Below are positions 1,338 through 36,973 of a DNA stretch of 36,973 nucleotides, in pieces. The stretch covers positions 62,001 through 98,973 of the forward strand of contig NKIB01009591.1 in the NCBI GenBank assembly GCA_002256025.1, written 5' to 3'. The notes below the pieces were generated by a model. That model did no database searches, was not told the origin of the DNA, and saw nothing but the letters and a program-made list of their open reading frames with translations. This stretch comes from Asterionella formosa (lineage: Eukaryota). The position numbers and the translations under genes are program-made. How positions within the stretch are numbered: position 1 is the stretch's first letter; the number at the start of each line of letters is the position of its first letter.

Positions 1338-1440
1338 ACCGGTACACATGTACTCCGGACTCTGGAGTACCAGTACCAGGGTACCAGGTACCACCCTGGT
1401 AGACAAACACCCATGGTACCAGGGTACCAGGGTACCCTGA
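1338..1440. repeat. GGTACCW/TACCGGTA palindromic low-complexity cluster upstream of gene at 1692
   Basis: gtaccagtaccagggtaccaggtacc and ggtaccagggtaccagggtaccc read directly from the sequence. Confidence 0.9.
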
Positions 1441-1691
1441 CCCGACCAAGACAAAGATCTACTAGAGATGTCAAAAATCTATGTATGTATGCAAACTATC
1501 TCACCAAAGATTGTCTTCTGCTTTTTAGTTCAACAAAAAACTGTATACCGGTGTATCATATCAGTATTCTGGCTAATGATTATATAATAACTTAAATGGC
1601 AGTTTGTTGTGATCCTCGGCTCAGGAATACTGTTTTCCTTGCTAACAGGTGTATCGGCTCTAAACGATCCAATACATGAATACATACCACC

Positions 1692-3098
1692 ATGACTAAA
1701 AAATCACTGTGCTTCTGCATCCTCTTCACGTACGGATCCGAACTTGTGGCATCGTTTGCTCCAAAATCAGGATGGGCACATCATTACAGCCGTACACCCC
1801 ACTTGAAAATGTCGATACCGAACCCACTTGACACAATCACATCTGGTCTTGCCAGCATCTGCCGCTTTCCAAAAGGGGTGACGGTTGAAAATAATGTCAA
1901 ATCAGGGGCCATATTGGTGCAGCTTTTTGATGTTGAAACGTCTCGTGAGTGTCGCATTGTTAGGGAGCGGATTTCGGAATTGGATCTTGTTGTTCGGGCT
2001 GTCATCCCAGCTGCACCTAATTCAAGAGTTTTCTCAGTGGCCACTTATGAGCACGCACTACCAATCGGGACAGAAATTCCTAGGCTAGTCGTTCAAGATG
2101 AAGCTGGTAGAGAAGTGGTCAAAGTTGGACAAGCGGAGATTATTTCATACCTAGACGAGACATTCTCAATGTCCGACGCCCCAGATGCTGAATCGGATAA
2201 TTTAAAGGAAAGCGTGTTGAATGTGGCGCACGCAGTGGGAAACTATGCAGCATGCTTCCTTCGCCTCGGTCGTGGTTCTTCCGTGACATCGGCAGCTTTG
2301 TCGGCCGCGACCCCTCGGCCCGATCTACCGTTGATCCTCTACTCCTACGAAGGCAACCAGTTTTGCCGCCTCGTTCGCGAGGTGTTAACAGACTTAGACA
2401 TTGTTTACGAACTGAGATCAGCAGGAAAGCTTTCCCCTCGGCGAGAAGAGTTGGCTGCCATTACCGGAGGATCGTCTCAATGCCCCTTCCTTATTGACCC
2501 CAACACAAGTGTTCAGATGCCAGAGAGCGAAAGCATTATTCGCTACCTGTACAAAACCTACGCGCTATGGACACCACCTAATGAAATACTTCAACTAACC
2601 TCCGAATTCATCTTGCCGCTCGTCAAGCCGCTTTTCAAGATCCTTGCTCCATTGCAAGCCGGATCTTCTAAAGAAAACAAGAATGAATACGAGGCTGACT
2701 TATCCAAGGCCCGCATAGAGATTGACCGGGAAATTGCTTCTGCATCTGTAGTTATCTATACTTACAGCCTGTCGCCTTTTTCAAGCGAGGCGAAGGCTCT
2801 CTTTGATAATCTCGAAATTGAGTACACAGAAATCAGCCTGGGTAGTGAATGGCTTCCGGGATTGATTGCCACAGGGAGTTCACAGAAACGAGCGGCTCTA
2901 CTTGAAATGACTGGCCAGTCCTCGTTACCTCATGTTTTTATTGGAGGAAAACCAATTGGTGGCTTGTTTAGTGGAACTCCAGGTATTATTCCTGCGCTTG
3001 AACAAGGCATATTGATTCCAATGGTAAACTCTGCTAGATCCACCAGTGTAGTAGATCTCCCAGAATCTGCGCTTGAAGAAATGGGAGCATTCGAGTGA
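1692..3098 (+). CDS. Plastid-targeted protein with two GST-N (thioredoxin-fold) domains plus C-terminal glutaredoxin-like domain
   Basis: 468-aa intronless ORF. Signal peptide then VAS|FAP cleavage motif. LYSYEGNQFCRLVREVLTDLDI...QCPFLIDPNT...ESESIIRYL is the tandem GST-N signature. C-terminal VVIYTYSLSPFS...SLPHVFIGGKPIGG is the Grx fold. Confidence 0.85.
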   Translation: MTKKSLCFCILFTYGSELVASFAPKSGWAHHYSRTPHLKMSIPNPLDTITSGLASICRFPKGVTVENNVKSGAILVQLFDVETSRECRIVRERISELDLVVRAVIPAAPNSRVFSVATYEHALPIGTEIPRLVVQDEAGREVVKVGQAEIISYLDETFSMSDAPDAESDNLKESVLNVAHAVGNYAACFLRLGRGSSVTSAALSAATPRPDLPLILYSYEGNQFCRLVREVLTDLDIVYELRSAGKLSPRREELAAITGGSSQCPFLIDPNTSVQMPESESIIRYLYKTYALWTPPNEILQLTSEFILPLVKPLFKILAPLQAGSSKENKNEYEADLSKARIEIDREIASASVVIYTYSLSPFSSEAKALFDNLEIEYTEISLGSEWLPGLIATGSSQKRAALLEMTGQSSLPHVFIGGKPIGGLFSGTPGIIPALEQGILIPMVNSARSTSVVDLPESALEEMGAFE

Positions 3099-3132
3099 AG
3101 ATTGCATCGCTTTATCCACGATTTGTACCTTG

Positions 3133-4878
3133 CTAGCTAACTGCCTTTAACAAGCAACGATGAACAGGAACTCCGTTCATTGAACAAGCAACTTCTGTCT
3201 CAGTTCTGCCAATTCTTGGTAGTATAGGACCTTTGCTCCAGCCTTCCCCTTCTGCCCTTTCACCTCCCATTTCAATCCAATCTAATGTTCGTTTCGTTAA
3301 GTGAGACTGTTTTCTACTACCTTCGTCCTCAAAGGACGAGCAATCCATGGCTTGAAATCCTCCTGTTTCCTCCGCTGTTCGTTTGATCCAAACTGCAACA
3401 TCTTCGCAATTCGACTGAACAAGCAGCTTTCCATTTGCTCTGGATAACGCTCGATGGACGACTTTCAGAAGACTTTTGTTTACCATGAACCCACTTTCTG
3501 TGTCTGCAGGAAGCTGTGCGTTTCCTTGAGATTTCTCGCCACTACTAGTCAATAGATTTGATAATCGGTATGGCGTCGGGAATTGAACAAGACAACACTC
3601 CACTTGGCCTGGGTATGAATCCACGACACAATGCAAGAATTCTTCAGCTGCATCGGCAAAGAAATGAAGCCTGTCCTGCAATTCCCATCGTTTGGACATA
3701 CCCTCTCCAAATCCAATGGCCATACCACTGAGATCGACGCCAGCGAAGTTACAATTGGACCATTCCTGTACAAGTGGAAAATTCTCTTCTCCCAGACATC
3801 GCTGTGCTAATCCGAGCAGAGAGACGCCCATACCACATCCAATGTCAATCACAAGCGGTTTCGTGGGTTCACTGTAAATTCCTTGCCAATCATAGCGTAT
3901 AAGACTGCAGTCGTGATTGGTTTTCCCATTATCCCCAGTTGCATCTTGTTGGTGACGTTCCCAGTGTTTCTGAGCAGACTCAAGAAAAATTCGTTGCTTA
4001 CGCTGTCGCGTTGAGAATCTCCAAATCATGACCAAGCATCGATCAGAATGAAAGTCCAAAAGATTCCCCATCCCCTCAGATGCTACCTTGCCTTTGGAAG
4101 CCAAGGCCAGCTTCCCCACTCTTTCTAAACCAGCATCATTTCGAACTCCAGCTGCAGCTAACCTCTCCAATATATGCCAAATGTCCTTTTCTCGGCACGA
4201 ACTACGAGTACCAAAGCGGCCCAGCTCGTTCTCACAGATTCTCGATAGTGATTGCATAACGAAGTGATCGTTGGCGCCAGCCAGCGAAAACCAGAATGCA
4301 GCATCAGCTGCTTTCCTTCCTCTCAGTTCAGGTTCCACCGCTTCCTTCCTTTTCAATCTTTCGCTGGCTTTCGATAGTAAGGATTGCAACTGTTGTTTTG
4401 GAACTGGCACTTGTCGTTCCGATGAAGCTAGAGCCAGTCCGAGTGCTGCATGGGCCAACTGCAAAACCGTGGTACCCTCTAACAGAGTCTCAGTGGTGTT
4501 GCGGACTAAAGACCACGAAGACACTCCACCGTCCTTTCGAGACATATCTTTTAAAGACACAAAGTATCCAGCTGGCAGGTCGACCCGATCCAGTTCGTTT
4601 CTGAGCGCATCTGCTTCGTCATAGTCACCTTGCCATCTCGCTTCGGCTCGTTTTTGTACCAGCTGAGACAAGAAATTTATCTGCTCTGATGTTAAAATCT
4701 TTTCAGGTTCCACAACAGTCTCTTGCTGCGATCGAACGGTTAGGTGTCGAGCTTGAAAGCTCCGATTTATGGGCCCAACAAACGATATCAAGTCTGTTCG
4801 GGCACCACAGGAAATGCTCAACGACACAATCCAAATACAGGCAAATTGCGACAGATTCCTCATCACAGTGGGCGACAT
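3133..4878 (-). CDS. Class I SAM-dependent methyltransferase, TrmB (tRNA m7G46)-like, with N-terminal CysRS C-terminal-like helical domain
   Basis: First ATG at 4878 (alternative 4863); the ORF-track start at 4956 is non-ATG. Motif I VIDIGCGMG, GVDLS, QFPTPY (cf. TrmB FPDPW), GKLLVQSN, TETE. N-terminal RAEARWQGDYDEADALRNEL. Hydrophobic leader suggests organelle targeting. Confidence 0.75.
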   Translation of the reverse strand: MSPTVMRNLSQFACIWIVSLSISCGARTDLISFVGPINRSFQARHLTVRSQQETVVEPEKILTSEQINFLSQLVQKRAEARWQGDYDEADALRNELDRVDLPAGYFVSLKDMSRKDGGVSSWSLVRNTTETLLEGTTVLQLAHAALGLALASSERQVPVPKQQLQSLLSKASERLKRKEAVEPELRGRKAADAAFWFSLAGANDHFVMQSLSRICENELGRFGTRSSCREKDIWHILERLAAAGVRNDAGLERVGKLALASKGKVASEGMGNLLDFHSDRCLVMIWRFSTRQRKQRIFLESAQKHWERHQQDATGDNGKTNHDCSLIRYDWQGIYSEPTKPLVIDIGCGMGVSLLGLAQRCLGEENFPLVQEWSNCNFAGVDLSGMAIGFGEGMSKRWELQDRLHFFADAAEEFLHCVVDSYPGQVECCLVQFPTPYRLSNLLTSSGEKSQGNAQLPADTESGFMVNKSLLKVVHRALSRANGKLLVQSNCEDVAVWIKRTAEETGGFQAMDCSSFEDEGSRKQSHLTKRTLDWIEMGGERAEGEGWSKGPILPRIGRTETEVACSMNGVPVHRCLLKAVS

Positions 4879-5110
4879 TATCCAAGCATGGATGACGGGC
4901 GAAGAACAAGTGCCGTCCTCTGGAGAGAATGTGTGTTGCTTTCGATGGTGCAACACAACAGTCCATAATGGGTTACCATTGAACTAGCAACCGCTATGTA
5001 TATTACTGCCTGTAATAATACATACGGCAATGTAGCGTTATTGACATACCTAATACAAATACCGGGTATACCGCTAATGTACAACTGCACGCATCACATA
5101 CACCGATTAT

Positions 5111-5142
5111 GGTACCTGGTACCAGGTACCAGGTACCGGGTA
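5111..5142. repeat. (GGTACCW)n cluster containing a perfect 20-bp palindrome
   Basis: 5111-5130 ggtacctggtaccaggtacc is its own reverse complement; it continues aggtaccgggta. Confidence 0.9.
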
Positions 5143-5660: not shown

Positions 5661-6491
5661 TTAATACAACACTTCCTCATCATTAAAGTCCTCCAAAGTT
5701 TCATCTGGTCTATCAGGCAATGCCTCTGTGCATCGAATCATAGTAAGAAAGCAATCGTTAAACGCACGATCAAACTCGCCTTCCATGTCACGAACATCTG
5801 TCTTGCTGTATGTCATTGCAATTTCCTTTAGAAACGGAACCAAGAGGGCAACGCCCTTGGGTACGTCAATACCTATGCGATTGGCGTACTTACATAACTG
5901 GTTACCAAACAGGAGGACTTTGTCTAGACTCACCCAATTTTCTAACAGCACATTGAAATATAGAATCATTGGGCAATGAGGCATGAAGAAGAGTGTGGCA
6001 GTCGAATGAATATTGCGTTTACCTCGTTCATTGTCCTGGATAAGTTGTATCCCAAGATCGTGTAGAATGCTGGTCTCCAATTGCGTCGAACAGGGGTCAA
6101 AAAAGTACACGTGTACGGGAGGTTCACTTTCGTCGTTTGCTGACTGGAGAATGTCCCAGAGATTGAGGGCGCATGCTAACTGCCAAAGCGGACCCGATCG
6201 TTGTCGTCCAAAATTACCGATTCCATAGCAGACTATTTGCTGAGGGCGGATGGGAGAGTCATTGAATGATTCAGTCAGAAATTTGAAGAAGTCAGTCTCT
6301 TTCAGTTTATATTTGTAATCGTACAATTGCTCAACTATTAATCGCTTGGATTCATCGGTCCATTCCGTGGCATCTGGAGGAGCTTGCACAGCAGCGGTTG
6401 TTCGCTGGCGATTTCGGTTGATCTGTTTCTTTCGTCCCTTGGCAATTCGCTTCTTATCTTGTTTTGTCACTGTAGTCCATTCGTCAGTCAT
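5661..6491 (-). CDS. SRR1-domain protein (SRRD/Ber1-like)
   Basis: 276-aa ORF with IVCYGIGNF, WQLA, FFDP, LFFMPHCPMILYFNVLLENW and LLFGN motifs typical of the SRR1 domain; C-terminal AFND. Confidence 0.85.
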   Translation of the reverse strand: MTDEWTTVTKQDKKRIAKGRKKQINRNRQRTTAAVQAPPDATEWTDESKRLIVEQLYDYKYKLKETDFFKFLTESFNDSPIRPQQIVCYGIGNFGRQRSGPLWQLACALNLWDILQSANDESEPPVHVYFFDPCSTQLETSILHDLGIQLIQDNERGKRNIHSTATLFFMPHCPMILYFNVLLENWVSLDKVLLFGNQLCKYANRIGIDVPKGVALLVPFLKEIAMTYSKTDVRDMEGEFDRAFNDCFLTMIRCTEALPDRPDETLEDFNDEEVLY

Positions 6492-7235
6492 AGTTGACTG
6501 CTTGTGTGATCATGAACGAATAGAATGGCACGTCATGGCCGACAGACGCAACACAAGCATCACCACATTTGTATATACCGGTTATCCTGTATTGCAGAAT
6601 AAATGTGTGCACAGCCACAGCCACATCAACCATGCATGCATTATTATATAAAAAAAGGCATGCATGAGGGGGTAAAATTTTGCCATGATGGAAATAATAA
6701 AAATAGTATTACCGGCAGGCTTGTTTTTTTATATCTATTAATTCGATATATTAATTACCGCAACCATCTTTGTTTTAATTAAATTTCATAGATGACGATG
6801 ATATGATGATCATATGGTGTATTCAATCTCTAGTGAACATATTTTATCTCCATTTTACACAAATACATATACTGCATATTGTATATCATGGCTACATGTA
6901 CACGGATATGTATGTAAGCATTTATGTTTATATATTTGTGTATGTATATATTCATGAAATTACATATTTTTGTATGTATTGTGTACGAATGTACGCATGT
7001 ACGGCTAGAAGAACTGAGCATGGGATTGTGCTTTCGTCAGTATTTCGGTAAAATTGTTGTGGAGAGTACTATCTTAGGGTACCAGGGGGTACCTGGTACC
7101 AGACATACATTACCGGTAGTACCAGTGCAACTACCACTGGAGGAAAAATGAAAGAAAGCCATCAAGCAAATGCATTGAACATTATTAACATCAGGCAAGC
7201 GTATTAAGTAACTCATCATCATTCACAACCGCATC

Positions 7236-8482
7236 ATGACAACTTTAACGACGGCATCCAAGTTCGTCGTGTTCGTCGCAGCTTTTTCCATGCTGCCCAC
7301 GGAAGCCTTCAAACCAAACCTACCCTCCTGTTTTGGTTCCAAATGCCTTCAACATCGCCCCAAATTGTTCGCATCCTTGGAGCAAGAAGCAGACTCTCCC
7401 ACTGCGTCGACGAGCGCACCATCGGCACCTCCACCTGTCCTCAATGGGAAAATGGTTCTTCCCATGCGAGTGGCACTTTCAGGCCTGTCAGGGCACGTGC
7501 TGCCAGCCGTATATGCTGTCATTCGCTCTGGATATACTCGAGGGTCGGATGGCTGGGACAAAGTCGAATACGTTGGCCGAACCACACACTTGTATGAAAC
7601 ACTCCAGCAGTTCATTTTGGAACATGGGTCCGACAAGGTGGCCCACCTTCGAGCATTATCCTTTTCTTTTCCACAAGAAGGCGCGATGCAATCTGTTGTG
7701 GACGATTGGAGGGAATCGGCCGTGGCAGCTGGTGCGCTCTTGAAAGATTGGGAGCCACGTTTGGAATCTACGTTCGTGGACATGATGGTTGACGAAGACG
7801 ACGACGATGAATGGGAAATCGACGAAGCTACTTCAATCGCGACCGCTAGTAAGGAAGAACTGATTTCACCATTTGCCAATTCAGGAGAAGTAGTTGCTGT
7901 AGGTGAGGTCTTGGAATTTACTCAGTTCAATGTCGACAAGGTCTTGGAAGAAGTTAGACCCTACTTGATTAGTGACGGAGGAAACGTGTCAGTAGAAAAG
8001 GTGGATCCTGTCAGCAAAGAAGTATTTCTGAAACTCGAGGGAGCATGTGGTACGTATTTGACGGTGTATCATCGAATTTGCTTAGTTCGTACTTGTCGTT
8101 TTCGCCAAAGGAGTTGAGGAGGGAAATGAATCTCACCTCCAGATATTCTTAAATTTTCGCAGGTTCGTGTCCTTCTTCCACCGTTACGATGAAAATGGGA
8201 ATTGAACGTGTCCTAAAGGAACACTTTCCAAACGTGCAAGTCGTTCAAGTTGAGGACGAATCTGACAAGCCCACAGAACTCACCTATGCCGCTGTGGAGC
8301 AAGAAGTCAAACGCATCCAGCCAGCTATTGTCGCCATGGGCGGTGTGGTAGAAATCATCAATGTGGATCCCATCGGTGAAGTGACTCTCCACTTTCGAGG
8401 AGCCAACAAGGTGCGGCAAGGATTGGAAATGGCGTTACTGGACATTCCGTTCTGCAAGCATATCAAGTTTGTGACTGCATAA
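7236..8482 (+). CDS. Plastid NFU-type Fe-S cluster carrier with N-terminal GIY-YIG-like domain; join(7236..8049,8163..8482)
   Basis: TEA|FKP presequence. VDKVLEEVRPYLISDGGNV...LKLEGACG|SCPSSTVTMKMGIERVLKEHFP is restored by a 113-nt GTACGT...TTTCGCAG intron (8050-8162). A second, Cys-less NifU repeat follows. N-terminal PAVYAV...VEYVGRT. Confidence 0.9.
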
Positions 8483-8517
8483 TTTTTTAATGTATTGACT
8501 ATATATTTCGGAACGAG

Positions 8518-9138: not shown

Positions 9139-9750
9139 GGTCAACCTGTTCCAGCTCAATTAATTGGTAAGGACTGATAATAATGATGGCTGTAGACATC
9201 ATCAGTTCTTAGTCGTCTCATTCTTGCAATCTGCGTGTGACCCAATGCGGGATGTACTAGGAGACTGTCTACCGGCATGTATGTACTGCCAATCTCCTAC
9301 GTAGACTATGTATGCAAATATGTACTGCTCATTCCGGTACAAATGTACGCAAGTGCTTCACATCCCGGTAAGTACCTGGTACCTAGGTAGAGTAGCATGT
9401 ACTTACTATGATGATACCCGCCTGATGGATATCCGTAATAATCTAAGAAAATGTATATGGTTCTTGTATGTACGGTAATATTTGTACTCTAGTATGTATT
9501 ATAGAGTTGCTTGTAATGATGATATTTCCTCTGCTATAGTAGCGCTCGCTCCTTGCCTTGCTCATCGACGTACCTACTATGATAACAATTCACAACAGCA
9601 AGAATAGATCTAATTCAGAAGGCCACGGCTCAAGCCCATGAGTATTTAGACGACATTTTGGTTTGGTTCTAAAGCAAAGGAAAAGCACCATTGCTGTTTG
9701 TCATATAGCATGTCCTACTCAGGAATCTGATGGAATGTTATTTAGCTAGA

Positions 9751-10620: not shown

Positions 10621-10799
10621 TTCTGATCTTCTACCGTTAATCCTTCTTCAGAATGATAAGATAAAATCATCCATGCATGTGGCTGCTACCGGTACTTGGA
10701 TGTGGTGGTATGAATTCGAGTTTTTCGGAAACTGTCTCTTTTCCCCCCTCTGATGTGCGTGTATGTGGTATCAGTACCACCACTCCTAAATGTTTGCCA

Positions 10800-11090
10800 A
10801 CTATTACCGGTACCAGGTACCGTACGATCGATTCTCACGATGACCTACGACCTGTACGTCAGCAAGAGCCATTTTGCGCTGTTCATACATCAAGAGGAGT
10901 GTACACGTTGACTACTGTACAGTACCAGGTACCTGGTATTACCGGTACCGGCCCCCTGTTGCCTCACCGTATAGGTACGATATTCGTAATGGGTACCGGT
11001 ACAGTATACATCGTGTCAGGACCTGCTGCGGTGAATTCGCTCGTTCGCTTACCAGCTTATGGTACCAGGTACCTGGTAGCTAGGTATACG
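10800..11090. repeat. GGTACCW/TACCGGTA/GTAC cluster in divergent promoter
   Basis: taccggtaccaggtaccgtac (10805), taccaggtacctggta palindromes (10923, 11063), ggtaccggtac (10992). Confidence 0.88.
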
Positions 11091-13976: not shown

Positions 13977-14505
13977 GGATTATCGATTGATAAATACTTC
14001 TATAGAAATAATCACTGTTTGCATGGAGAGAAATTAACGCTCGGCAATAAGTGCGGTTTCAATTTTCGTTTTAGTTTCTACATACATGCCGGTACATGTA
14101 TTAGCCAAATACCGGTATAAACCTCTGCAGTCTGTACATCTATCCGTAAAAATACATACCGTACGTACACAATCATGTAGTAAGTAGACAACATGTTTTC
14201 GACCTTTGGAAATAGACGTCACCTCGCTGCTGGTTCGTCGGTCAGATTTCCGAAGCCCTGCTGGCCTGACGAAACCGAACTTCTCCAACTAAATATCCAT
14301 ACATACATATACGTATATATATATGTGTAGACATTGCGGAATTCTTTCTTGATCTTCGTATTGCATATATGTAGAGACGCTATGTATTTTTTGCAACGAC
14401 CTGTACCTGGTATCATATATTTCTGACATCATGGGGGTTGGGCCTGCATGAATCCTCATAAATTCCTCCAGACGGAGCAAACGCACAATTTTTTGCCCGT
14501 AGCAA

Positions 14506-17000: not shown

Positions 17001-17260
17001 GGTTGTTCTTGCAAACCATTCACTCTTTTATAGAATACCGGAAGGCTACACTTCCTGTTCTATATAGTACATCATATAACATCATGCATGCCATGGTCAC
17101 ATCAATCACCGGTACTCGGCTATTTCACATTGCGTCAAATACAGAGGAATGAGCGTATTATTACTACGGATTTATATAAATAATGCATATTTGTGGTGAA
17201 GCCAATGTTCTTGGTATGATCCTACGCTATTTCCGCCCGCAAGTCCTGGAAGAAATACAG

Positions 17261-17600
17261 TACCAGGGTACATAGATTCAGCCAAGGAACAGCCACTGGT
17301 CGATTATGCTGGCTGATCTAGCATGATCCCTACCATTGTAGGAACATGGTAGGAGTTAGAGCAAGTTCCGTTAACTTTTTATCCCAAGTTGCAGGTACCT
17401 GGTACTACCATACCGGTACTGTATTATCATACCGGTATTGTGTTTAGTGGTACCAGGTACCCTGGTAGTCTACTACCTGTTAGCAGGTACCTGGTACCGG
17501 TAAATAGAGTATAGCTACGGGCATTATGCATCATGATCATCACACGTACTACCGTACTCCGAATAGCATATTCTGTACCACTACCATGGTATCAGGGGTA
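17261..17600. repeat. GGTACCW/TACCGGTA cluster in divergent promoter
   Basis: caggtacctggtac (17392), ggtaccaggtaccctggta (17449), caggtacctggtaccggta (17484), taccatggta (17582). Confidence 0.88.
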
Positions 17601-17938
17601 GTAGACTACTGGTGCTCCTTGTTTCTCTTGTCGTGTCGTGATATGTACATAGTACAACCGAACATGATTACCGGGGGTATCTGGTAGTGGTGGTAATATA
17701 AGAATGACATTTTACTACTGGAATACATAGTATGTCATAGCATTATAACCGTATATTTATACCGCATTATTACAGTAATTAAAAGCAAAAGCATGTGCTC
17801 GTGTACTGCTCGTTTGCTTTGTGCGTTTGTTCCTCCGGGCACGACACGATACGGTTTCCCATGTTTTATAGATCGTCTCCACATCCCAGAAATTGCTTGA
17901 TTCGCGTTGATTCGGTCCATCATTTGAGTTTCATCATT

Positions 17939-19620: not shown

Positions 19621-21002
19621 GCTCAACAACTACGGTAGTTGTATATCCGATGGACCTGACGGTAAAGAGTAAGTACCGATATGTGATATGTATATAAAAT
19701 AGAATGATAAATGTGGTGGGAATTTTTGTTGTTGTGTGCTCTTTGGACGTGGGATCAAGAAAACAAGGATGAAAGAAATAGTTTGTACTGATGGAGAGGT
19801 GTTGTGCATTATTTGTGTGGAGAAATTGCCCGCACCAGACATACCGGTATGTACACCAAAATAGACCTCCGTAGTCCCCTACCAGCAGGAAGTACAATGT
19901 GCATCGTATGAGCCGATATATTAATGTATGTATATATTTATCTATGTACATGTATATACAACCAAACAGACACTCACGCACATAGTCGTGTACACAGCAC
20001 GTATAAAGCAAGTAAGGATCTAGGAATGCACGCAACGTAGACATGTATGATGGCTAGTACGAACAAGCAAAAATATAGTAAACAATGATGTCACGACGAA
20101 AGCATGATATGGCGCCTGAAACGGAGAAATCCAATTGTTACTTCCACATACTTGTCACATACCAATGTGTGCGTGACCTATAAATTTATTACAGTGACTC
20201 CTTGGATATACATACTGCTGGTAGCAGTAGCTAGGCTGTCACCCCATGAATCCATTCATTCAAGTTCTGGCACATACCGGTACATATGTATTGGTCGTCA
20301 GGTCATTCATGTCTGTCTGCAGACATCTTCACAATACTATTGTGCAACCATTGAATGACTATACCAAAGGCATGCTTCAATATTCCTCTGCTACTCCCCT
20401 TCATTCAATTTGCTAACAAAAATTATGGTCAAAAGTGATGATTGTTCCCAGGTATCAAGAAATAACACTGATCTGCTGCACCGTTAATCTTCATCAGTCT
20501 TATAGCTCTGAACAAATCTGCTGAATTTGCTCTGAATATGCTCATCAATTCTTGTGGTAGCTGACAAGTGTGCATAGTTCCCACTTCCATCCAATACCTT
20601 CCTCTGGCATTAGGCATGAACATGGCACTGTATGGGGTCAAACACTGCATGATTATGTTGCAATTTCATGAGTATACAGCGGCGGCCTTCTCCAGGATGT
20701 TAGGCTTCAAAATATCTGTTGTGTTTTGTTGGGTGTAATATGTCTCCTCTGTTTACTTTAATTCTACAGTAAGAGGAAAAATCTCCCCTATCTGATGTCT
20801 TCACCAACAGATACCTCTGCAAATAAAAACCATCATATTCCTATGATGCATCATAGGTCATATGATGCATCATTATGATCATCTGATCATAACTTTTCAT
20901 TACATCATCTAATAATTTTGGTAAATGCCCTTGTAATTTAAAAAGTAAGACTTTTGACTATGGAAATTTAATTTTTATCTGTATTGTTTCTTTTAGGTTC
21001 CT

Positions 21003-27034: not shown

Positions 27035-27492
27035 CTACCAGGTACCGTATGTAGGGTGGTAACTACGGGTGGAAAGTCCGCTAATCGAGATATTTAGCTG
27101 ATCCTTTTCTTAAGTAAAATACAAATTTCCCGGACCTTCCCTACCGGTAGTTAGTACCTTGTACCCTGGTACCTGGTACCTGGTACCAGGTACTCAAGAG
27201 TCCGGAGTATATACCGGTACTCCGGTATGTAATGTTTTGGACGTACATTTTGTATGTAATGTTACTACCGGTACTGGTATGTATGCAAATCATGCAATGC
27301 ATGAGAGGAACAGCTCCGTACTCCAGTGCCTGGTACCAGGTACCTGGTACCCTGGTACCGGGTACCGTTACCTAGCACCAGTAGTATGACACTCATCACA
27401 CCGGGTACCTGGCACCCTGGTACCTGGTACTGGTACCTGGCACAGGGTATTTCGACTGCATCTTGTCGCTAGGACCAGCGGTATACCGGTAC
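27035..27492. repeat. Densest GGTACCW/TACCGGTA cluster, divergent promoter
   Basis: ggtacctggtacctggtaccaggtac (27168), perfect palindrome ggtaccaggtacctggtacc (27332-27351), ggtacctggtactggtacctgg (27419). Confidence 0.92.
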
Positions 27493-27605
27493 TGCTCTTT
27501 GCCACCATGACATACCATCACCAGGAACTTATAAAAATATTAAACAGTACCGGTATTATAGTTCTGCTTGTCCTCATTTTGGCTCGTCATTCTATCATTG
27601 TTTCA

Positions 27606-27635: not shown

Positions 27636-27647
27636 TTAAGACAAGTC

Positions 27648-28175: not shown

Positions 28176-28212
28176 TCTAGCGAAAATTAGCTTGGATTTA
28201 TAGTGTTAAGGT

Positions 28213-29299: not shown

Positions 29300-29445
29300 A
29301 TACTGTACATACCGGTATACCGGTAAATATCTTTTCATTGTGTCTGTTAGGCTGTTGATGTCGACAGGTGTCCGAAGGCTAAATATAATAGTCTGAGGAA
29401 TACTACCGGTACTTACCTGGTACCAGGTACCAGGTACAACCGTTA
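29300..29445. repeat. GGTACCW/TACCGGTA cluster in divergent promoter
   Basis: taccggtataccggta (29310) and taccggtacttacctggtaccaggtaccaggtac (29404). Confidence 0.88.
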
Positions 29446-29754
29446 CATGGCTACTCGCATCGTCTGAGGAATGAAAAAGATGCACAGCAGTGGTACTCAA
29501 AGTAGATACAATATTTATATTGCATACGTACTTATCACATGTTACTAAATAAACCGGTATGACGATGTGTTCAAAAATACCGGAGATCTGTTCTGTAAAT
29601 GTACCGGTATGTGTTTTTTGTGGTACCGGTACTGATCATGTCCCTGTGATGGCTTTCAAGCAGGTATTCGGCTGATGTAGGGCTGCCACAAAGTGTCACT
29701 TTTGTTTTGGACGACATCTGTGATGAATAATAGAGCACTATCAGCCGACATAAC

Positions 29755-31395: not shown

Positions 31396-31631
31396 GTGTG
31401 TTGGATGCTATTAGGAGCTGAATTTAATGGTGCCAAAAGCTGCAAAATAGACAGTCGATGTACTCTCAATTTGAACACATATAAATCGAGCGCACATCGA
31501 CTACCAGTAACCTCACAGCGAGTGCAAATTGAGGATAAGATGTACTCAAAATCAAAATCGGTTTATATCCATCATGAATAGAAATCCATGTATCTTTTAT
31601 GGAACTACGCTATTTATTCTAGTGGCAAAAG

Positions 31632-32807
31632 TTAATCTGCTGATCTTTTCAAGGAAGCTAAGACTTCACCCCAAACTCCTTCCATGCTTTGGTTTGCATT
31701 GACTTGTCGGACCACTCCAAGGGGAGCGTAGTGTTTCAATATAGGCACTGTCTCACCATGATACCCTTGAAGACGCTTCACGAGAGCCGATGATGTGTCA
31801 TCAGGTCGCTGCATTAAGGGTTCACCAGTTTCATCATCCTTCATACTCTCTGGCACTGGGTTTCCATGGGTATCTAATTTCATCGACTTGGGAGGCGCAA
31901 ATTTAATGTGATAGGATCGCCCACTAGTCTTATGAATCCAACGTCCACAGATTCTTTCTTCCAATACACCGTCAGGAACTTGCAACTCAATGACTTTGGT
32001 GACACATGCACCTTCACTTGCCAACATACTATCCAGCGCTTTGGCTTGCTCCAAAGTCCGAGGGAATCCATCGAGGATGAAACCAAATTGACAGTCTTCT
32101 TCCTTGATACGGTCTCGGATGATTCCAATAACAATCTCGTCACTCACAAGACCTCCAGCCTTCATAACGGCCTGTGCCTTCTTTCCAATTTCGGTTTGAG
32201 CCGAGACCGCAGCTCGCAACATGTCACCAGTGGAGAGTTGTGGAGTGCCCAGCAAGTCTTCAATCTTGGGTCCATGCGTTCCTTTGCTGCCAAAATCAAA
32301 AAAAAACCCAACGAATGCACAACGTGTTAGATACCCCAAGCCCACGATACTAACTTATGGGCCTTCCATAGCCTGGTAATGTTGCACTTACCCAGCTCCA
32401 GGTGGTCCAAACAGAATCAAAATGTTGCGAGGCCAGTAAGTGCCAAACTTTGCTTTTGTTTCCTTCACAGCCTCCTCTACTGATTCCGTTTTTCCAAAGA
32501 AGTTGGAAGTCTTGGACTGCAACGACATGGCGATGAATGTTTCAGTCAGCTATTTCATAGCAAGGAATATGAACAAGAGGTCGCGCATGGGGGCCATTCT
32601 GACTGTGGGATTGACTCATGACCTAATAGTGCGGTTACTCACATCGTTGCAAAGCATGGCAGTTCCTCCCATTGCCAATCCCGCAATAGCGAGAAGCGGC
32701 AAGGCCTTCTCATTCTTGCTGCTGACGCGAGAAGCAGTAGCAAGAGTCCTTCGGGAAGAAGAAGCCAAGCGGCGAGTGGCGATACGGAGAGTGTTGGAGG
32801 CGAGCAT
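31632..32807 (-). CDS. ADK: Adenylate kinase, mitochondrial-targeted; complement(join(31632..32286,32392..32516,32643..32807))
   Basis: Introns 32642-32517 (GTGAGT..TTGCAG) and 32391-32287 (GTAAGT..GGCAG) restore the P-loop ILFGPPGAG|KGT. Also LSTGDMLR, GFILDGFPRT and LID GRWIHKTSGRSYH...DDETGEPLMQRPDD. Arg/Ser-rich presequence. Confidence 0.95.
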
Positions 32808-33386
32808 CGTCCTGGATGACAGCCTTTACTTTTATCTTTTATATAAAATATGTATATACATTTATTTGTGTCCTCTACATGTGAGGATGCAGATATTTTT
32901 CGGAGATCGATGATATACCTTTAACCACTATGTATGGATCACACTTTGTGATATTTGCACATATTCATACCTGAATTCTTTACTATCCATAGTCTATGGT
33001 AGAAACATATCATGTTGGTGAGGATCCAGCAGCGTACCGGTAGATTCGCGGGACGAGGGGCGCACAGACGACCACAAATGTTGGTTGATTGCTTGCTGGC
33101 ACGATGCCTTATTAATTATTAAAAATAGAGAGCGAGTACTGGTAAGGAATTAAAAAATTATACAGTGTACAGTACAACACAGTACGGAGTACATTTGTTT
33201 TACATGAGGGCTGATGTAAGAATGCGAAGCAACTGTATCGAGAAAAAAGGTGCAAGGTACTACGAGGTACCGGAACTCCCTCAAGAAACACATCATTGCA
33301 CATAGTTTGTGTTACAATTTTCAGACCAGTATTTGCATGCTTTCACTTTAAAGGAAGCACACCATCCAGCCATTAAAAATCAAATA

Positions 33387-35141
33387 ATGAGTGAACAAGA
33401 CGAGCAGCCGCAGACCAAAAAAATCAGAACCGAAGGCCTCTTGGATATTTTGTCGCCTCACATTTTAACTTTGGAATGCAAGGCCCTCAACGAAAACTAC
33501 GCAATGGCTACACCCTATCCCCATGGACGAATGGAGAAAATGTTCAGGGAAGGATTCCTCGAAAAGGTACTTGATGAAGTCAAATCAACAAGCGTTGTCA
33601 AATTCAAGGAATCGGATCTCTTTCGAGTGTATCAATCCATTGATCTTGGAAACTTGGCGGACGATGCACCACAGGCCATGGAATTGCCGTCTTTATTGGA
33701 ACTTAAGCGAGCCATCTACTCTCGGGAGTATAGGAACTTTATAGAGCGAGTCGTGGGGATTCCACAAGGTACTCTGACCGAACAAGTTGACTGTGCCGTC
33801 AATTGCCATATTTCTGGCTGCCATTTGCTCTGTCACGATGATGTGATCGGAACGCGCAAAGTGTCGTATATTATTTACCTCACTGAGGAGGGATGGAAAA
33901 AGGAAGAAGGTGGAGCATTAGAGCTTTATGAAAGTGAACTAGACAGCCAACAGCGACGAGTTCCTAAGCCTATTCCCAGCAAAACTCTCTTGCCCATTTT
34001 CAACACCATGGCGTATTTTGTTGTTGTTCCAGGGCAGTCATTTCATGCTGTTCAAGAAGTCTTTGGTGAACGACCCAGATTGTCAATTCAAGGTTGGTAT
34101 CATGCTAAAGAAAAACCGGAGAACATGGAGGAGGCGACTTTGAGTCAATTAAAATCGACCTTAAAGGGAGAAGACACCGAGGGCGTCTTTATTGCCTTTG
34201 ACGAGAATGATCATGACCAACTATTGGTGCTACCAAAAGAAGACATTGAGCATCTTTCGAAGTATATGAACACTACCTATATTACGGAGGAGTCGATAGC
34301 GGAGATTCGAAATCGGTTTGAAATAGACTCAAGTGTCCAACTTCGATCGTTCATTCAACCAGAATGGATCAACAAGATTAATTCAGCATGTGCTAAACGA
34401 GACGAAAAGTTCGGAAACGGAAATCCGGTACTTGACTACAACGCAGGTGTTGACAAAGATTGGAAGATAGTGGGGCCTGCTCACAAGCAAAGGTTTCTGG
34501 AGTACACTGGGACAAGTGATGGTGATATGGCCGGCTCCGTCATGGCTCAAATACGTCGGGAGTTGCTTGAATCACTTGCATTTGGACGCTTTCTAAATTG
34601 CATTACAGGTTTGGGTATGCCACTTGGCCATAGAGGACGTGTACGTCGCTTTCGCCCTGCTTTGGACTATACTGTGGCTCATTATGGAATTTTGACAACT
34701 CAATCCGTCCTGGATGCAACACTGTGCTTTGCAGCAGGAAACGGGAAACAGTGCCTCATGGACGAAGAGACTGGCGATTTGGTGGGCTCAGATGATGACG
34801 CCATTTGGGCGTCTGGCGACTGCGGTGGGTTTGAATGTTATATTGCTGCTGATGACGATAGTGATGAAGGTCACGAGGAAGCAGCAGATGAATATAACGC
34901 TGATGACGACACTGAACTGCTGAGTGTCTCAGCCAGTAATAATACACTTTCGTTGGTCTACAGAGATCCAGGAACCATGCGATTTGTGAAGTATGTTGGT
35001 TGTCGAGCTCCTAGCTCAAGATGGGATCTTAGTATGGAGTACGAAGTGCAAGTCACCGAAAGTGATGATGAGTGCACTGAAACAGATGACACAGTGGAGG
35101 GCAGAGGTCATGGTGTAAATGGAGGTGATAATGTAGATTGA
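33387..35141 (+). CDS. TPA1: Ribosomal protein uS12 prolyl hydroxylase, TPA1/Ofd1/OGFOD1 family
   Basis: ATG 33387. HLLCHDDVIGTRKVSYIIYL (HxD), GGALELY, SFHAVQEV, RLSIQGWYH. Second degenerate domain with GPAHKQRF, RRFRPALDYT and LSLVYRDPGTMRFVKYV. Confidence 0.92.
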   Translation: MSEQDEQPQTKKIRTEGLLDILSPHILTLECKALNENYAMATPYPHGRMEKMFREGFLEKVLDEVKSTSVVKFKESDLFRVYQSIDLGNLADDAPQAMELPSLLELKRAIYSREYRNFIERVVGIPQGTLTEQVDCAVNCHISGCHLLCHDDVIGTRKVSYIIYLTEEGWKKEEGGALELYESELDSQQRRVPKPIPSKTLLPIFNTMAYFVVVPGQSFHAVQEVFGERPRLSIQGWYHAKEKPENMEEATLSQLKSTLKGEDTEGVFIAFDENDHDQLLVLPKEDIEHLSKYMNTTYITEESIAEIRNRFEIDSSVQLRSFIQPEWINKINSACAKRDEKFGNGNPVLDYNAGVDKDWKIVGPAHKQRFLEYTGTSDGDMAGSVMAQIRRELLESLAFGRFLNCITGLGMPLGHRGRVRRFRPALDYTVAHYGILTTQSVLDATLCFAAGNGKQCLMDEETGDLVGSDDDAIWASGDCGGFECYIAADDDSDEGHEEAADEYNADDDTELLSVSASNNTLSLVYRDPGTMRFVKYVGCRAPSSRWDLSMEYEVQVTESDDECTETDDTVEGRGHGVNGGDNVD

Positions 35142-35324
35142 ACAGAGGGTGAATGAAACACTGCTGCAATATTTACCAAAATTACTGGATTCTCTCAAGT
35201 ACTGAGAGATATCAAAGCGATGTTGGAACTTTGTGCTGTAACAGTGCAAACATCTCTGGAGAATGATACATAGTAATTGTTTGAATTTATGAATTTTGAT
35301 CACATGTCATGATCTAAAGCTATA

Positions 35325-35671
35325 TTTACGTGAAATTCATACATGTACATATACTGCATCTAAGCCGCGTATTACGTGAAGTGACAATCATGTAAATAAG
35401 CCTAGTTGATTTTGAATGGATCACATGAATTAGTTGAATACATCAAAATGCTTACTTGAATATATCTATATATTATCTGAATACATCACGTTCATTATTT
35501 GATCAGAGTATCATGCATGCATTCCTGATCATCACTATATTACGTGATCACCTTCACATCATTATTTGAAATACTTCAATTAATTCTGTAATTCAGTTCA
35601 CATTGCCTTAAATTTTTGTTCACGTAATTCTATAATATAGTTCACGTAATGTATTAAATTTTTTACGTAAT
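35325..35671. repeat. Cluster of six ATTACGTGAA-like motifs, three forward then three inverted
   Basis: tttacgtgaa 35325, attacgtgaa 35371, attacgtgat 35539, ttcacgtaat 35619, ttcacgtaat 35641, tttacgtaat 35662. Confidence 0.8.
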
Positions 35672-35709
35672 TTAAAAGTACTATCAAATAATGTTGATTA
35701 CTAATTCAA

Positions 35710-36526
35710 CAACCGGTATTTCACATTACATGGGAAACAAATCTCGATATGCAATCAAACAAAGCTGTTCTATCAGAATGGAATCTTCAGTCTTGAGAAG
35801 TCAGGCATTATGAGACATCTGTAAGGACATTGCAAGACGAGGAGAAGCCATTCATTCAGAAGGGGGAAATTATTCACTCTTGAACACGCATCATTCTACG
35901 AAGTTGCAACATGAATGCATCCTCACACACTGATTTCCTTCTTGTACTTGAAATGACTTCTTCATTGACCTGCAGAGATTTTCATAACAACAGTGTGTCA
36001 GTAATGTATAAGATAGAACTAGCAACAGCAGAAAGCAACACACAGTTCATTCCGGACCTCATTGTCCCTGCCTGTTGTCAACAACAATGCGTGAGCTGAC
36101 AAGCCATACTAGCATTTAGGTAAACAACAAGAACACACTCACCATTCAACTGTATTGCAGAGTTCTTTTATTTGAGCCAAGGATTCAATTGACATTGCAG
36201 CAAACCCCTTCAATTCAGGAGCATTCGGATGAAATCCAGGATTGAGTATTGTTGCTTTCTGATTCTGTGTTAATGTCATATGATAACAGGGCTCCGTAAA
36301 TCATGAGTTGTTAGTGTGCCTTGGCGTGCTGTTTGTCATGCTGCCAGCTGCTGCTGTATTTATAATGAATTATTGAACAACTGGCACATAAAGATTCGCA
36401 TAGTCGTTGCCCACACAAGGGGCTGTGTCTGTGATGACCACGAATTGATTTAAAAGGACCTTTACCACAGAATTTACATTTGTCCTCGTCGTAATTGTCA
36501 CACAGATCCATGATATTTACTGTCAT
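35710..36526 (-). pseudogene. Decayed spliced gene with N-terminal C2HC-like zinc finger (possibly transposon-derived)
   Basis: MTVNIMD..CKFCGKGPFKSIRGHHRHSPLC followed by a frameshift and stops. Intron-like GTGAGT..CTCAC..ACAG and GTCCGG..CTGAC..TGCAG segments lie at about 35950-36142. Confidence 0.45.
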
Positions 36527-36973
36527 TCAGTGCTGTGTTGGCGAGAGAAAAATAAGAATAACCGGTAGCTAAAATAATGGACCTTGTTTGGCGCATATTT
36601 GGCAAACAATACTACCTGGTACCATCCTCATCAGTAGACATAATTCCACCAGTGTTGATTTTGAGTAATAATAATCACGTAAAAAAATTGGGTTGCCTAC
36701 CACTGGCTAGTAGTACATTTACCTAGTACCGGTAATAACCTACATAACATGAAAACTGGGAAGGGGAGAGGGAGCTTTTTTACCGGTAAGTGTCAGTTCT
36801 TCATGTGATGTGTACAACCGTAAAACTTTGATCTCAGATGGATGACATTAGACACCACAAATATCCTTACTATTTCATTAAGTAAAATGCGTGTTGTGAA
36901 TGTATTAGCCTCAAGAGCAGGATCTTAGTTGAACTTTCAAATGAATTATTTGAAACATCAACTAATTCAGTCT

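What the first reader, a model, noticed from the sequence alone, without database searches (positions are those of the whole stretch)
1338..36790. Promoter-restricted self-complementary (GGTACCW)n / TACCGGTA tangles in front of almost every gene
Seen: clusters built from GGTACC joined by A/T (creating CCWGG junctions) or overlapping CCGG occur at about 1340-1440, 5060-5140, 7075-7125, 9365-9390, 10800-11090, 14090-14165/14400, 17260-17600, 19840, 27035-27490, 29300-29630, 33260 and 36560-36790. Each of these intergenic regions contains a gene 5' end. The clusters are typically 100-500 bp upstream of an ATG, include perfect 20-bp palindromes (5111, 27332), are absent from the four short tail-to-tail gaps and are rare in CDS. 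Copies share vocabulary but no linear homology, so this is not one dispersed MITE. Inference: either a lineage-specific general promoter or nucleosome-exclusion code, or the footprint of a local process that seeds and expands palindromic units (strand-switch slippage, or a DNA modification system acting on GTAC/CCWGG/CCGG). I know of no functional description of it.
Basis: partly seen in the sequence, partly recalled or inferred. Interest (0 to 1): 0.8.

Follow-up and report, generated by a model that had tools for sequence, protein, structure and literature searches.

The report
Palindromic GTAC clusters at diatom promoters
In this freshwater diatom nearly every gene is preceded by clusters of short palindromic DNA words (GGTACC, TACCGGTA); this promoter signature seems undescribed and most likely provides docking sites for a general promoter-binding protein.

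Summary
The window is nuclear DNA of a freshwater diatom. GGTACC occurs 46 times against 4.3 expected, and TACCGGTA 25 times against 0.16. They are the most enriched words in an unbiased k-mer ranking.

With my curated gene models, the 7.7 kb lying within 600 bp upstream of a start codon holds 42 of 46 GGTACC, 24 of 25 TACCGGTA and 26 of 26 TACCWGGTA. Coding DNA, 3' flanks, six convergent gaps and 7.7 kb of distal non-coding DNA hold almost none, and control palindromes are evenly spread. Sixteen of 18 genes carry a word.

A metagenome scan found the same promoter-side bias in 34 other contigs. One was tested and belongs to a second diatom, whose word set differs.

The clusters are not a MITE, an RNA gene or an assembly artefact.

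Best reading (about 0.45): clustered binding sites for a dimeric general promoter factor. Replication slippage resizes the arrays. No protein, chromatin effect or DNA modification could be tested. Eight literature searches found no description.

Verdict: a new variant of a known kind. Interest 0.65.

The parts
1337..1436 (.). Cluster upstream of gene 1692-3098 (+): TACCGGTA, (GTACCAG)n, (CCAGGGTA)3
   Evidence: nearest word 258 bp from the ATG
5060..5142 (.). Cluster upstream of gene 3133-4956 (-): (GGTACCW)4.6 with a perfect 22-bp palindrome at 5110-5131
   Evidence: RNA contigs of two studies both stop at 5037 while a DNA contig runs on (weak hint)
7078..7125 (.). Cluster in the divergent gap between 5661-6491 (-) and 7236-8482 (+)
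   Evidence: Strain variant: TACCGG lost at 7111 and gained behind 7131 in X13, X9 and X2
9345..9390 (.). Small cluster upstream of EMC7-like gene 8518-9159 (-)
   Evidence: 222 bp from the ATG
10687..11078 (.). Large cluster in the divergent gap between 9751-10620 (-) and 11286-12458 (+): 7 GGTACC, 4 TACCGGTA, 5 TACCWGGTA
14093..14415 (.). Weak cluster upstream of gene 14506-15558 (+): one TACCGGTA plus GTAC words
17260..17613 (.). Cluster upstream of gene 16023-17000 (-): 5 GGTACC, 3 TACCGGTA, GTAGTAGAC/GTCTACTAC words
19842..20282 (.). Two isolated TACCGGTA sites upstream of WD40 gene 18584-19629 (-)
27041..27555 (.). Largest cluster, in the divergent gap between 26208-26887 (-) and 27648-28175 (+): 12 GGTACC, 5 TACCGGTA, perfect 20-bp palindrome at 27332-27351, 41-nt inverted arms at 27154-27194 and 27325-27365
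   Evidence: single-strand DNA fold z = -7.09
29310..29631 (.). Cluster in the divergent gap between 28213-29124 (-) and 30088-31395 (+): 5 TACCGGTA, 3 GGTACC, 16-bp palindrome TACCGGTATACCGGTA
33035..33271 (.). Weak cluster upstream of Ofd1/Tpa1-like gene 33309-35141 (+): one TACCGGTA, one GGTACC
36561..36788 (.). Cluster upstream of a tentative minus-strand first exon (36311-36526): 2 TACCGGTA, 1 GGTACC, 1 extra ACCGGT

Best explanation
The clusters are promoter-proximal arrays of binding sites for one sequence-specific DNA-binding protein, or a small family of them. The protein is probably dimeric and reads the inverted half-sites TACC/GGTA.

The half-sites occur with spacer 0 (TACCGGTA), with spacer 1 (TACCWGGTA), and everted and overlapping (GGTACC).

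Sites sit a few hundred bp upstream of the start codon at nearly every gene. They would act as a general promoter mark. Possible actions are keeping the promoter nucleosome-free, helping the initiation complex to form, and insulating each promoter from read-through in a compact genome. Yeast Reb1/Abf1, Drosophila GAGA factor on (GA)n, and DREF/BEAF-32 on TATCGATA/CGATA work this way.

Because the unit is self-complementary and short, replication slippage and hairpin-mediated strand switching create and resize the heptad arrays. Selection for occupancy then keeps them.

Shown here: enrichment, promoter-side placement, exactness of the words, isolated exact sites, unit-level differences between strains, and different word sets in two diatoms.

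Inferred: protein binding, dimeric recognition, and any effect on chromatin or transcription.
For: 1. Placement in the window. 42 of 46 GGTACC, 24 of 25 TACCGGTA and 26 of 26 TACCWGGTA lie within 600 bp upstream of a facing ATG. There are 0-2 per class in CDS, 3' flanks and 7.7 kb of distal non-coding DNA, and five control palindromes are flat. Sixteen of 18 genes have a word, and the median distance to the ATG is 284 bp.

2. Placement in other contigs. I analysed 34 of the 128 fetched metagenome loci (397 kb), none overlapping the window. GGTACC per kb is 0.17 in ORFs, 2.41 in divergent gaps, 1.37 in tandem gaps and 0.24 in convergent gaps. The scan-pattern matches fall 25 divergent, 25 tandem, 2 convergent, 0 in ORFs and 17 at contig edges. 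Divergent gaps hold two promoters and have about twice the tandem density.

3. Position within gaps. Words are depleted in the 100 bp next to the ATG (0.57/kb) and in the first 200 bp after stop codons (0.22-0.44/kb). They peak 400-600 bp upstream (4.1-4.2/kb). In 86 tandem gaps the 170 words fall 13, 27, 58, 54 and 18 across fifths running from stop to ATG.

4. Site-like sharpness. There are 25 exact TACCGGTA against 33 copies spread over all 24 one-mismatch variants. There are 26 exact TACCWGGTA; the centre base is W in 26 of 29 in the window and 311 of 314 in the loci. Thirteen of 25 TACCGGTA are isolated, with unrelated flanks.

5. Turnover with retention. In three runs from another study, TACCGGTA at 7111 is lost and a new TACCGGTACC appears 21 bp away.

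6. Dialects. The window has TACCGGTA about equal to TACCWGGTA (25 and 26) and TAGTACTA once. The other loci have 311, 28 and 98. One search, on the 27 loci of the Ga0100/Ga0210 sample series, adds ACTAGT, TAGCTA and (TAC)n. L045 was tested and is a diatom. This fits a factor and its sites drifting together.

7. Weak hint on transcripts. RNA contigs of two studies both stop at 5037, 74 bp short of the 5111 array, while a DNA contig continues.
Against: - No binding protein is identified, and none could be sought because no genome is held.
- In gaps that lack the scan pattern, which is the unbiased subset, the contrast is weaker. Divergent gaps have a word in 7 of 19, tandem in 16 of 39 and convergent in 3 of 24 (Fisher p = 0.019). 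Densities are 1.32, 0.82 and 0.74 per kb, with 12 words in three 'convergent' gaps.
- Only about 40% of those promoter-type gaps carry an exact word, so 'almost every gene' is shown only for the window.
- Some RNA contigs run into or through clusters: X13 and X9 from 7085, X13 to 5246, X9 across 9735-12559. RNA contigs from other loci also end in arrays. The words are therefore not strictly upstream of all transcripts.
- In the other loci the vocabulary is broad and includes plain (TAC)n/(GTA)n trinucleotide repeats. That looks more like slippage-prone low-complexity DNA than a single defined site.
- Enrichment at spacers 0, 1 and, more weakly, 2 is unusual for a rigid dimer.
- Gene models in the loci are crude (ORFs of at least 120 aa). 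Only one locus (L045) was checked for taxon.
Confidence: 0.45

Rival explanations
1. Neutral by-product of a mutational process confined to open promoter DNA. Self-complementary units are seeded and expanded by replication slippage, hairpin-mediated template switching or repair of promoter-associated breaks, and have no function.
For: - There are tandem 7- and 8-bp arrays of 2-6 copies, perfect 16-22-bp palindromes, and a 41-nt inverted pair with a fold z of -7.09.
- Strains differ by indels in these gaps, including a TACCGG unit and a 16-bp insertion carrying TACCGG.
- The other loci show (TAC)n/(GTA)n runs that switch strand, such as TACTAGTA and GTACTAGTAC.
- Clusters share words but not linear order.
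Against: - Thirteen of 25 TACCGGTA are isolated exact 8-mers with unrelated flanks, against 0.16 expected in the whole window. Slippage cannot make these.
- Exact words outnumber their decay products.
- Other microsatellites, (AT)8 and (AC)9, are not tied to these positions.
- Convergent gaps carry none in the window, and GGTACC is near its composition expectation there in the loci.
- The lost 7111 site is replaced 21 bp away.
Confidence: 0.25
2. Intrinsic DNA-structure code with no dedicated factor. GTAC-rich self-complementary heptads disfavour nucleosomes or extrude cruciforms under transcriptional supercoiling, and so define promoter gaps directly.
For: - Placement is promoter-only.
- The TA step is enriched in promoter DNA (observed/expected 1.15, against 0.55-0.76 elsewhere).
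- Self-complementarity is strong.
- Many different arrangements of the same GTA/TAC syllable are enriched. That fits a physical property better than one fixed site.
Against: - A physical property should tolerate mismatches, yet exact 8- and 9-mers dominate their variants.
- Isolated 8-bp sites are too short to exclude a nucleosome or to extrude.
- I know of no published nucleosome-excluding behaviour for these words (from recall; not searched).
Confidence: 0.12
3. Targets of a DNA modification system (methylation at GTAC, CCWGG or CCGG) that marks promoters.
For: - All the words are palindromes of the kind methyltransferases read.
- The commonest variants of TACCGGTA are the CpG transitions TACTGGTA (7) and TACCAGTA (4).
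- A copy of a cluster segment lying in AT-rich distal DNA has its CpGs changed to TpG (12791 against 27205).
Against: - CpG observed/expected in promoters (0.79) equals that in CDS (0.81), and only distal DNA is depleted (0.51). Promoter CpGs therefore look unmethylated in the germ line.
- GGTACC has no CpG.
- No modification data or methyltransferase gene could be examined.
Confidence: 0.06
4. Debris or terminal repeats of a promoter-targeting transposon (a MITE).
For: - DNA-run depth rises 4-40 fold in the bins holding arrays.
- Dozens of contigs from elsewhere end in the arrays.
- Inverted array pairs flank about 130 bp at 27154-27365.
Against: - No conserved internal sequence, terminal repeat or target-site duplication was found.
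- Flanks of the other copies disagree (agreement 0.36-0.42).
- Many sites are single 8-mers.
Confidence: 0.05

Closest known systems
GAGA factor on (GA)n promoter microsatellites in Drosophila, and BPC proteins on GA repeats in plants (from recall)
   Same: Short words occur as microsatellite-like arrays just upstream of many genes. The arrays can grow by slippage. The proposed role is a general factor that opens promoters.
   Different: The word here is self-complementary (GGTACCW, TACCGGTA), so arrays are palindromic and strand-neutral. The factor is unknown. The host is a diatom.
DRE (TATCGATA) bound by DREF, and CGATA clusters bound by BEAF-32, at Drosophila housekeeping promoters (from recall; a BEAF paper, PMC12549938, was seen only as a search listing and abstract)
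   Same: An exact 8-bp palindrome is strongly over-represented near the starts of a large share of genes, often in several copies.
   Different: The sequence is different. Here heptad tandem arrays occur as well, and spacer variants 0, 1 and 2 of the same half-sites.
Yeast general regulatory factors (Reb1, Abf1, Rap1) and unstable promoter tandem repeats (from recall)
   Same: Position in the promoter gap of a compact genome. A possible dual role in nucleosome depletion and in blocking read-through from the neighbouring gene. Strain-level repeat variation.
   Different: Yeast promoter repeats are mostly AT-rich and non-palindromic. Nothing was tested functionally here.
SBP-box proteins on GTAC-core elements (plant SPL proteins; Chlamydomonas CRR1 copper-response elements) (from recall)
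   Same: A GTAC core.
   Different: A table in PMC4827209 lists 0 SBP genes for Phaeodactylum and the other non-green algae, and 23 for Chlamydomonas (passages seen). The flanks here are RGTACY and ACC(W)GGT, not CGTAC.
Highly iterated palindromes and REP-type repeats of bacteria
   Same: Extreme over-representation of one short palindrome, and 7-bp repeat units.
   Different: Those are bacterial. They lie in genes or behind stop codons, and are not confined to gene-upstream DNA.

Membership tests
Promoter-proximal homotypic binding-site clusters / general regulatory factor elements | Concentrated within a few hundred bp upstream of gene starts and absent from other non-coding DNA | tested here: met
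   window; 34 other loci; weaker in gaps lacking the scan pattern
Promoter-proximal homotypic binding-site clusters / general regulatory factor elements | Defined word far above chance, with exact copies dominating variants | tested here: met
Promoter-proximal homotypic binding-site clusters / general regulatory factor elements | Bound by a sequence-specific protein | not testable with these tools
   No genome held; no binding data
Promoter-proximal homotypic binding-site clusters / general regulatory factor elements | Changes nucleosome occupancy or transcription | not testable with these tools
   Only assembled RNA contigs were available; these cannot show starts or levels
Microsatellite / short tandem repeat | Head-to-tail units in several copies | tested here: met
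   7-bp arrays of 3.4-7.7 copies at 1367, 5111, 17448, 27154, 27329, 27400 and 29414; 8-bp arrays at 1411 and 29309
Microsatellite / short tandem repeat | All copies explained by tandem expansion | tested here: not met
   13 of 25 TACCGGTA in the window have no other GGTACC, TACCGGTA or TACCWGGTA within 20 bp; 143 of 311 TACCWGGTA in the loci have no other TACC(W)GGTA within 20 bp
MITE / DNA transposon | Conserved linear sequence with terminal inverted repeats and target-site duplication | tested here: not met
   flanks of other genomic copies disagree
SBP-box GTAC element (CuRE type) | GTAC core | tested here: met
   GTAC is 17.1/kb in promoter DNA against 2.3-3.8/kb elsewhere
SBP-box GTAC element (CuRE type) | SBP-domain factor present in the lineage | not tested
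   No genome to search. The PMC4827209 table lists 0 SBP genes in Phaeodactylum
HIP1-like highly iterated palindrome / methyltransferase target | Genome-wide spread including coding DNA | tested here: not met
   0 TACCGGTA and 2 GGTACC in 18.7 kb of CDS
HIP1-like highly iterated palindrome / methyltransferase target | Cognate DNA modification | not testable with these tools
   No raw long reads or methylation data
Structured RNA gene | Match to a known RNA family or tRNA | tested here: not met
   0 Rfam matches at gathering score and 0 tRNAs in the window

The most novel reading that the evidence does not exclude
A clade of diatoms uses a near-universal promoter code built from one self-complementary syllable: TACC/GGTA arranged inverted, everted or in heptad arrays. 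A dedicated palindrome-binding general factor reads it, or a promoter-marking DNA modification does. Each species has its own dialect of the code. This would be the first general promoter element described for diatoms. It would also be a natural case of a transcription-factor code that grows by hairpin slippage.
Probability: 0.35. Interest if true: 0.8.

Novelty: new variant of a known kind. Interest (0 to 1): 0.65.

Why it matters
Diatom promoters are poorly defined. My searches found no described general promoter element for diatoms.

A short word set that flags the upstream region of 16 of 18 genes could have three uses:
- It would give a sequence-only way to find promoters and gene orientation in diatom genomes and metagenome contigs.
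- It would give compact synthetic promoter parts for diatom engineering.
- It would give a direct bait for isolating the factor.

The species-specific word sets offer a test case for how a factor and thousands of its sites change together. The self-complementary arrays show how slippage can supply new sites.

If the words prove to be a neutral by-product, they would instead point to a promoter-specific mutational process.

Tried and rejected
- Genome-wide test in the organism's own genome: no genome is held.
- Earlier notes of this scan: nothing on this genome. The GGTACC notes concern bacterial REP or heptad repeats, and one concerns a Naegleria promoter motif.
- Literature, eight searches: these returned only cloning primers and unrelated papers.
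- Three papers queried by term search:
  - The Phytophthora binding-specificity paper PMC11267843 has no GTAC, CCGG, GGTA or TACC in its main text.
  - A 2026 diatom Myb preprint has none either.
  - The third, PMC4827209, gave the SBP table cited elsewhere in this report.
  - Figures and supplements of these papers were not seen and could hold motifs.
- Orthologous promoters: tblastn of 17 window proteins against all 128 loci gave no hit, so no phylogenetic footprinting was possible.
- MITE reading: rejected.
- RNA gene or tRNA reading: rejected.
- Assembly artefact: rejected. Twenty of the 24 listed runs, from 13 studies, hold the stretch, and X2 contigs span three clusters.
- RNA evidence for start sites:
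  - Only assembled contigs were available, and these cannot show transcript starts.
  - Several RNA contigs end 50-260 bp short of clusters (1527/1584, 9102, 10637, 14492, 17136, 19721). Apart from the shared stop at 5037, I do not count this as evidence.
  - No RNA contig covers 12674-14007; that gap proves nothing.
  - The 'joints' between arrays (for example 1393 to 5113) have 20-23-bp sides. They are contigs from other loci that share array words, not deletions.
- SNP density inside words against flanks: the tables are truncated (35 substitutions and 8 indels not shown), so no test was made.
- A third protein search to place the marine locus L059 was not run, because it would add little.


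Full report
**What the window is**

The 16 longest ORFs carry eukaryotic families: EMC7, SRR1, a THOC3-type WD40 propeller, an Ofd1/Tpa1 prolyl hydroxylase, adenylate kinase and a GST-glutaredoxin fusion. The Ofd1-like protein has its best named relatives in diatoms at 50-59% identity, and unnamed relatives at 74-75%.

Twenty of the 24 listed public runs, from 13 studies and mostly labelled freshwater or lake metagenomes, hold window 27000-36900. So this is nuclear DNA of a freshwater diatom without a close named relative. No whole genome is held for it. Genes are mostly single long ORFs. RNA contigs confirm introns at 8049-8161 and 19227-19327.

Yes.
- GGTACC occurs 46 times against 4.3 expected from dinucleotide shuffles (largest 12). 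TACCGGTA occurs 25 times against 0.16.
- An unbiased ranking of all k-mers puts GGTACC, TACCGG, CCGGTA and ACCGGT first among 6-mers. It puts TACCGGTA (48-fold), GTACCAGG and CCTGGTAC first among 8-mers.
Three are weak.
- The two 20-bp palindromes are perfect, and 5110-5131 is a perfect 22-mer.
- Tandem Repeats Finder reports 7-bp arrays of 3.4-7.7 copies and two 8-bp arrays.

**Is it promoter-restricted?**

I built 18 gene models from ORFs, Pfam hits and RNA-contig introns. Two are tentative: 32440-32913, and a minus-strand first exon at 36311-36526.

Counts by class:

| Class | Size | GGTACC | TACCGGTA | TACCWGGTA |
|---|---|---|---|---|
| Within 600 bp upstream of a facing ATG | 7,659 bp | 42 of 46 | 24 of 25 | 26 of 26 |
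| CDS | 18,747 bp | 2 | 0 | 0 |
| 3' flanks | 2,868 bp | 0 | 0 | 0 |
| Distal non-coding | 7,699 bp | 2 | 1 | 0 |

- The distal class is mainly the AT-rich, ORF-free stretches at about 20300-26200 and 12500-13900.
- Six convergent gaps (964 bp in all) hold no word.
- CATG, TGCA, GGATCC, GAATTC and CCATGG show no such skew.
- Sixty-two of 71 words lie 100-500 bp from the nearest facing ATG (median 284 bp). Sixteen of 18 genes have a word within 600 bp.
- The distal DNA is CpG-depleted (observed/expected 0.51, against 0.79-0.81 in promoters and CDS). It is probably old methylated repeat DNA, so it is a control for 'any non-coding DNA' but not for 'any open chromatin'.

**More DNA from elsewhere**

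It yielded 128 loci totalling 634,524 bp. None overlaps the window apart from a 47-bp array match.

I analysed 34 of the 128 loci. The criteria were at least 4 kb and GC 0.38-0.50, with five same-contig duplicates dropped. Gene models were crude (non-overlapping ORFs of at least 120 aa).

GGTACC density and scan-pattern matches:

| Region | GGTACC per kb | Scan-pattern matches |
|---|---|---|
| ORFs | 0.17 | 0 |
| Divergent gaps | 2.41 | 25 |
| Tandem gaps | 1.37 | 25 |
| Convergent gaps | 0.24 | 2 |
| Contig edges | 1.10 | 17 |

For the loci and the window together:
- Words are rare in the 100 bp next to the ATG (0.57/kb) and in the first 200 bp after a stop codon (0.22-0.44/kb).
- They peak 400-600 bp upstream (about 4.1/kb).
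- In 86 tandem gaps the 170 words fall 13, 27, 58, 54 and 18 across fifths running from stop to ATG.

The unbiased subset, meaning gaps that lack the scan pattern, gives a weaker contrast:
- A word is present in 7 of 19 divergent gaps, 16 of 39 tandem gaps and 3 of 24 convergent gaps (Fisher p = 0.019).
- Densities are 1.32, 0.82 and 0.74 per kb, with 12 words in three 'convergent' gaps.

The promoter-side bias therefore generalises. 'Almost every gene' is shown only for the window.

**A second diatom with another dialect**

L045 carries a DEAD-box helicase gene. Its best named relatives are diatoms at 55-59% identity. Many of the loci share a word profile that differs from the window's.

| Word | Window | 34 loci |
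|---|---|---|
| TACCWGGTA | 26 | 311 |
| TACCGGTA | 25 | 28 |
| TAGTACTA | 1 | 98 |

In the 27 loci of the Ga0100/Ga0210 sample series, ACTAGT, TAGCTA, AGTAGACT and (TAC)n/(GTA)n are also enriched in promoter-type gaps (example). Those extra words are not promoter-linked in the window.

The common denominator is the syllable RGTA/TACY in three arrangements:
- inverted: TACC-N0/1-GGTA and TACTAGTA;
- everted and overlapping: GGTACC and AGTACT;
- direct: (GTA)n.

The centre base of TACCNGGTA is W in 26 of 29 cases in the window and 311 of 314 in the loci.

**What it is not**

- Not a MITE. Repeat searches give only array-to-array matches, weak 65-71% alignments driven by shared words, and one 35-nt match at 86%. 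In DNA run X2, 12-27 contigs from elsewhere end in the arrays at 1392 and 5111-5137, and their flanks disagree with one another (agreement 0.36-0.42).
- Not a known RNA or tRNA.
- Not an assembly artefact. X2 contigs from another study span the clusters at 5111, 10687-11073 and 17260-17600, although they break at three other arrays.
- The X2 depth spikes in the array bins (4388 against about 103) show that the arrays are dispersed at many other loci.

**Evidence bearing on mechanism**

For discrete recognition sites:
- There are 25 exact TACCGGTA against 33 copies over all 24 one-mismatch variants. The commonest variants are the CpG transitions TACTGGTA (7) and TACCAGTA (4).
- TACCWGGTA has almost no variants.
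- Thirteen of 25 TACCGGTA stand alone with unrelated flanks.
- In runs from other studies, TACCGG is missing at 7111 and present behind 7131. This removes one TACCGGTA and creates TACCGGTACC 21 bp away.

For slippage and strand switching:
- The heptad arrays themselves.
- A 41-nt inverted array pair at 27154-27365, with a single-strand DNA fold z of -7.09.
- Unit-sized indels between strains.
- Strand-switching (TAC)n/(GTA)n runs in the second diatom's locus L045.

On transcripts:
- Only assembled contigs were available, and these cannot define starts.
- The one admissible hint is that RNA contigs of two studies both stop at 5037, 74 bp short of the 5111 array, while a DNA contig continues.
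- Against strict exclusion from transcripts, some metatranscriptome contigs enter or cross clusters: from 7085, to 5246, and across 9735-12559.

**Explanation**

I favour, at about 0.45, clustered binding sites for a dimeric, sequence-specific general promoter factor. Slippage supplies the arrays and resizes them.

Rivals:
- a neutral promoter-specific mutational by-product (0.25);
- an intrinsic DNA-structure or nucleosome-exclusion code (0.12);
- a DNA-modification target (0.06);
- transposon debris (0.05).

Binding, chromatin effects and modification are all untested.

**Comparison with what is known**

- The closest analogues are GAGA factor on (GA)n, DREF/BEAF-32 on TATCGATA/CGATA, and the yeast general regulatory factors with promoter tandem repeats. 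I cite these from recall.
- SBP-box factors read GTAC. However, a published table lists no SBP genes in Phaeodactylum or the other non-green algae it covers (PMC4827209, passages seen).
- Bacterial iterated palindromes and GGTACC heptad repeats noted earlier in this scan differ in host and placement.
- Eight literature searches found no description of this signature. Of the three papers queried by term, two hold none of these words in their main text. The third gave only the SBP table. Figures and supplements were not seen.

**Verdict**

It is best filed as a new variant of a known kind, namely promoter-proximal homotypic element arrays. It has an unusual self-complementary architecture and species-specific dialects. 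Interest 0.65.

Noticed in passing
window 18307-18635: A 164-bp unit is repeated twice at 96% identity just downstream of the WD40 gene's stop codon (18584), within its RNA contigs. RNA contigs of X14 and X9 carry only one copy ('skips 164'), so this is either a copy-number polymorphism or an assembly collapse.
   Followed up: partly
window 1-1334: Depth in DNA run X2 is about 1000 against about 100 for the rest of the window, and there is no ORF of 100 aa or more. This is probably a dispersed repeat or TE fragment unrelated to the GTAC clusters.
   Followed up: no
window 20300-26200 and 12500-13900: Two AT-rich stretches (35-38% GC) have no long ORFs, CpG observed/expected of 0.51 and an excess of TG/CA. 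They are likely old methylated repeat DNA and carry almost none of the promoter words.
   Followed up: partly
window 12791-12825 vs 27205-27239: A 35-nt segment from inside the largest cluster recurs in the AT-rich distal DNA at 86% identity, with its CpGs changed to TpG. TACTGGTA, TAGTACTA and GTAGTA words lie nearby (12798-13203). This may be a decayed former cluster.
   Followed up: partly
window 11286-12458: A diatom gene matches DUF2332, which Pfam describes as conserved in bacteria (E = 2.4e-48). It may have a bacterial origin.
   Followed up: no
window 7236-9159: The NifU-like gene (with intron 8049-8161) and the EMC7-like gene converge with only 35 bp between their stop codons. Single RNA contigs cover both, so their 3' ends probably overlap.
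   Followed up: no
window 27606-27635: An (AC)9(CAC)5 microsatellite lies 13-42 bp upstream of the MGQ... start codon at 27648, probably in the 5' UTR.
   Followed up: no
L045 9257-11428: A 2.2-kb divergent gap of the second diatom is packed with GGTACCW arrays, TACTAGTA and GTACTAGTAC palindromes and (GTA)n runs. This is a far denser 'tangle' than any in the window.
   Followed up: partly
L059 (marine metagenome contig), 91-195: A marine contig carries the window's dialect (3 TACCGGTA and 3 GGTACC within about 100 bp) next to the 3' end of a 1040-aa ORF. Its taxon was not checked.
   Followed up: no
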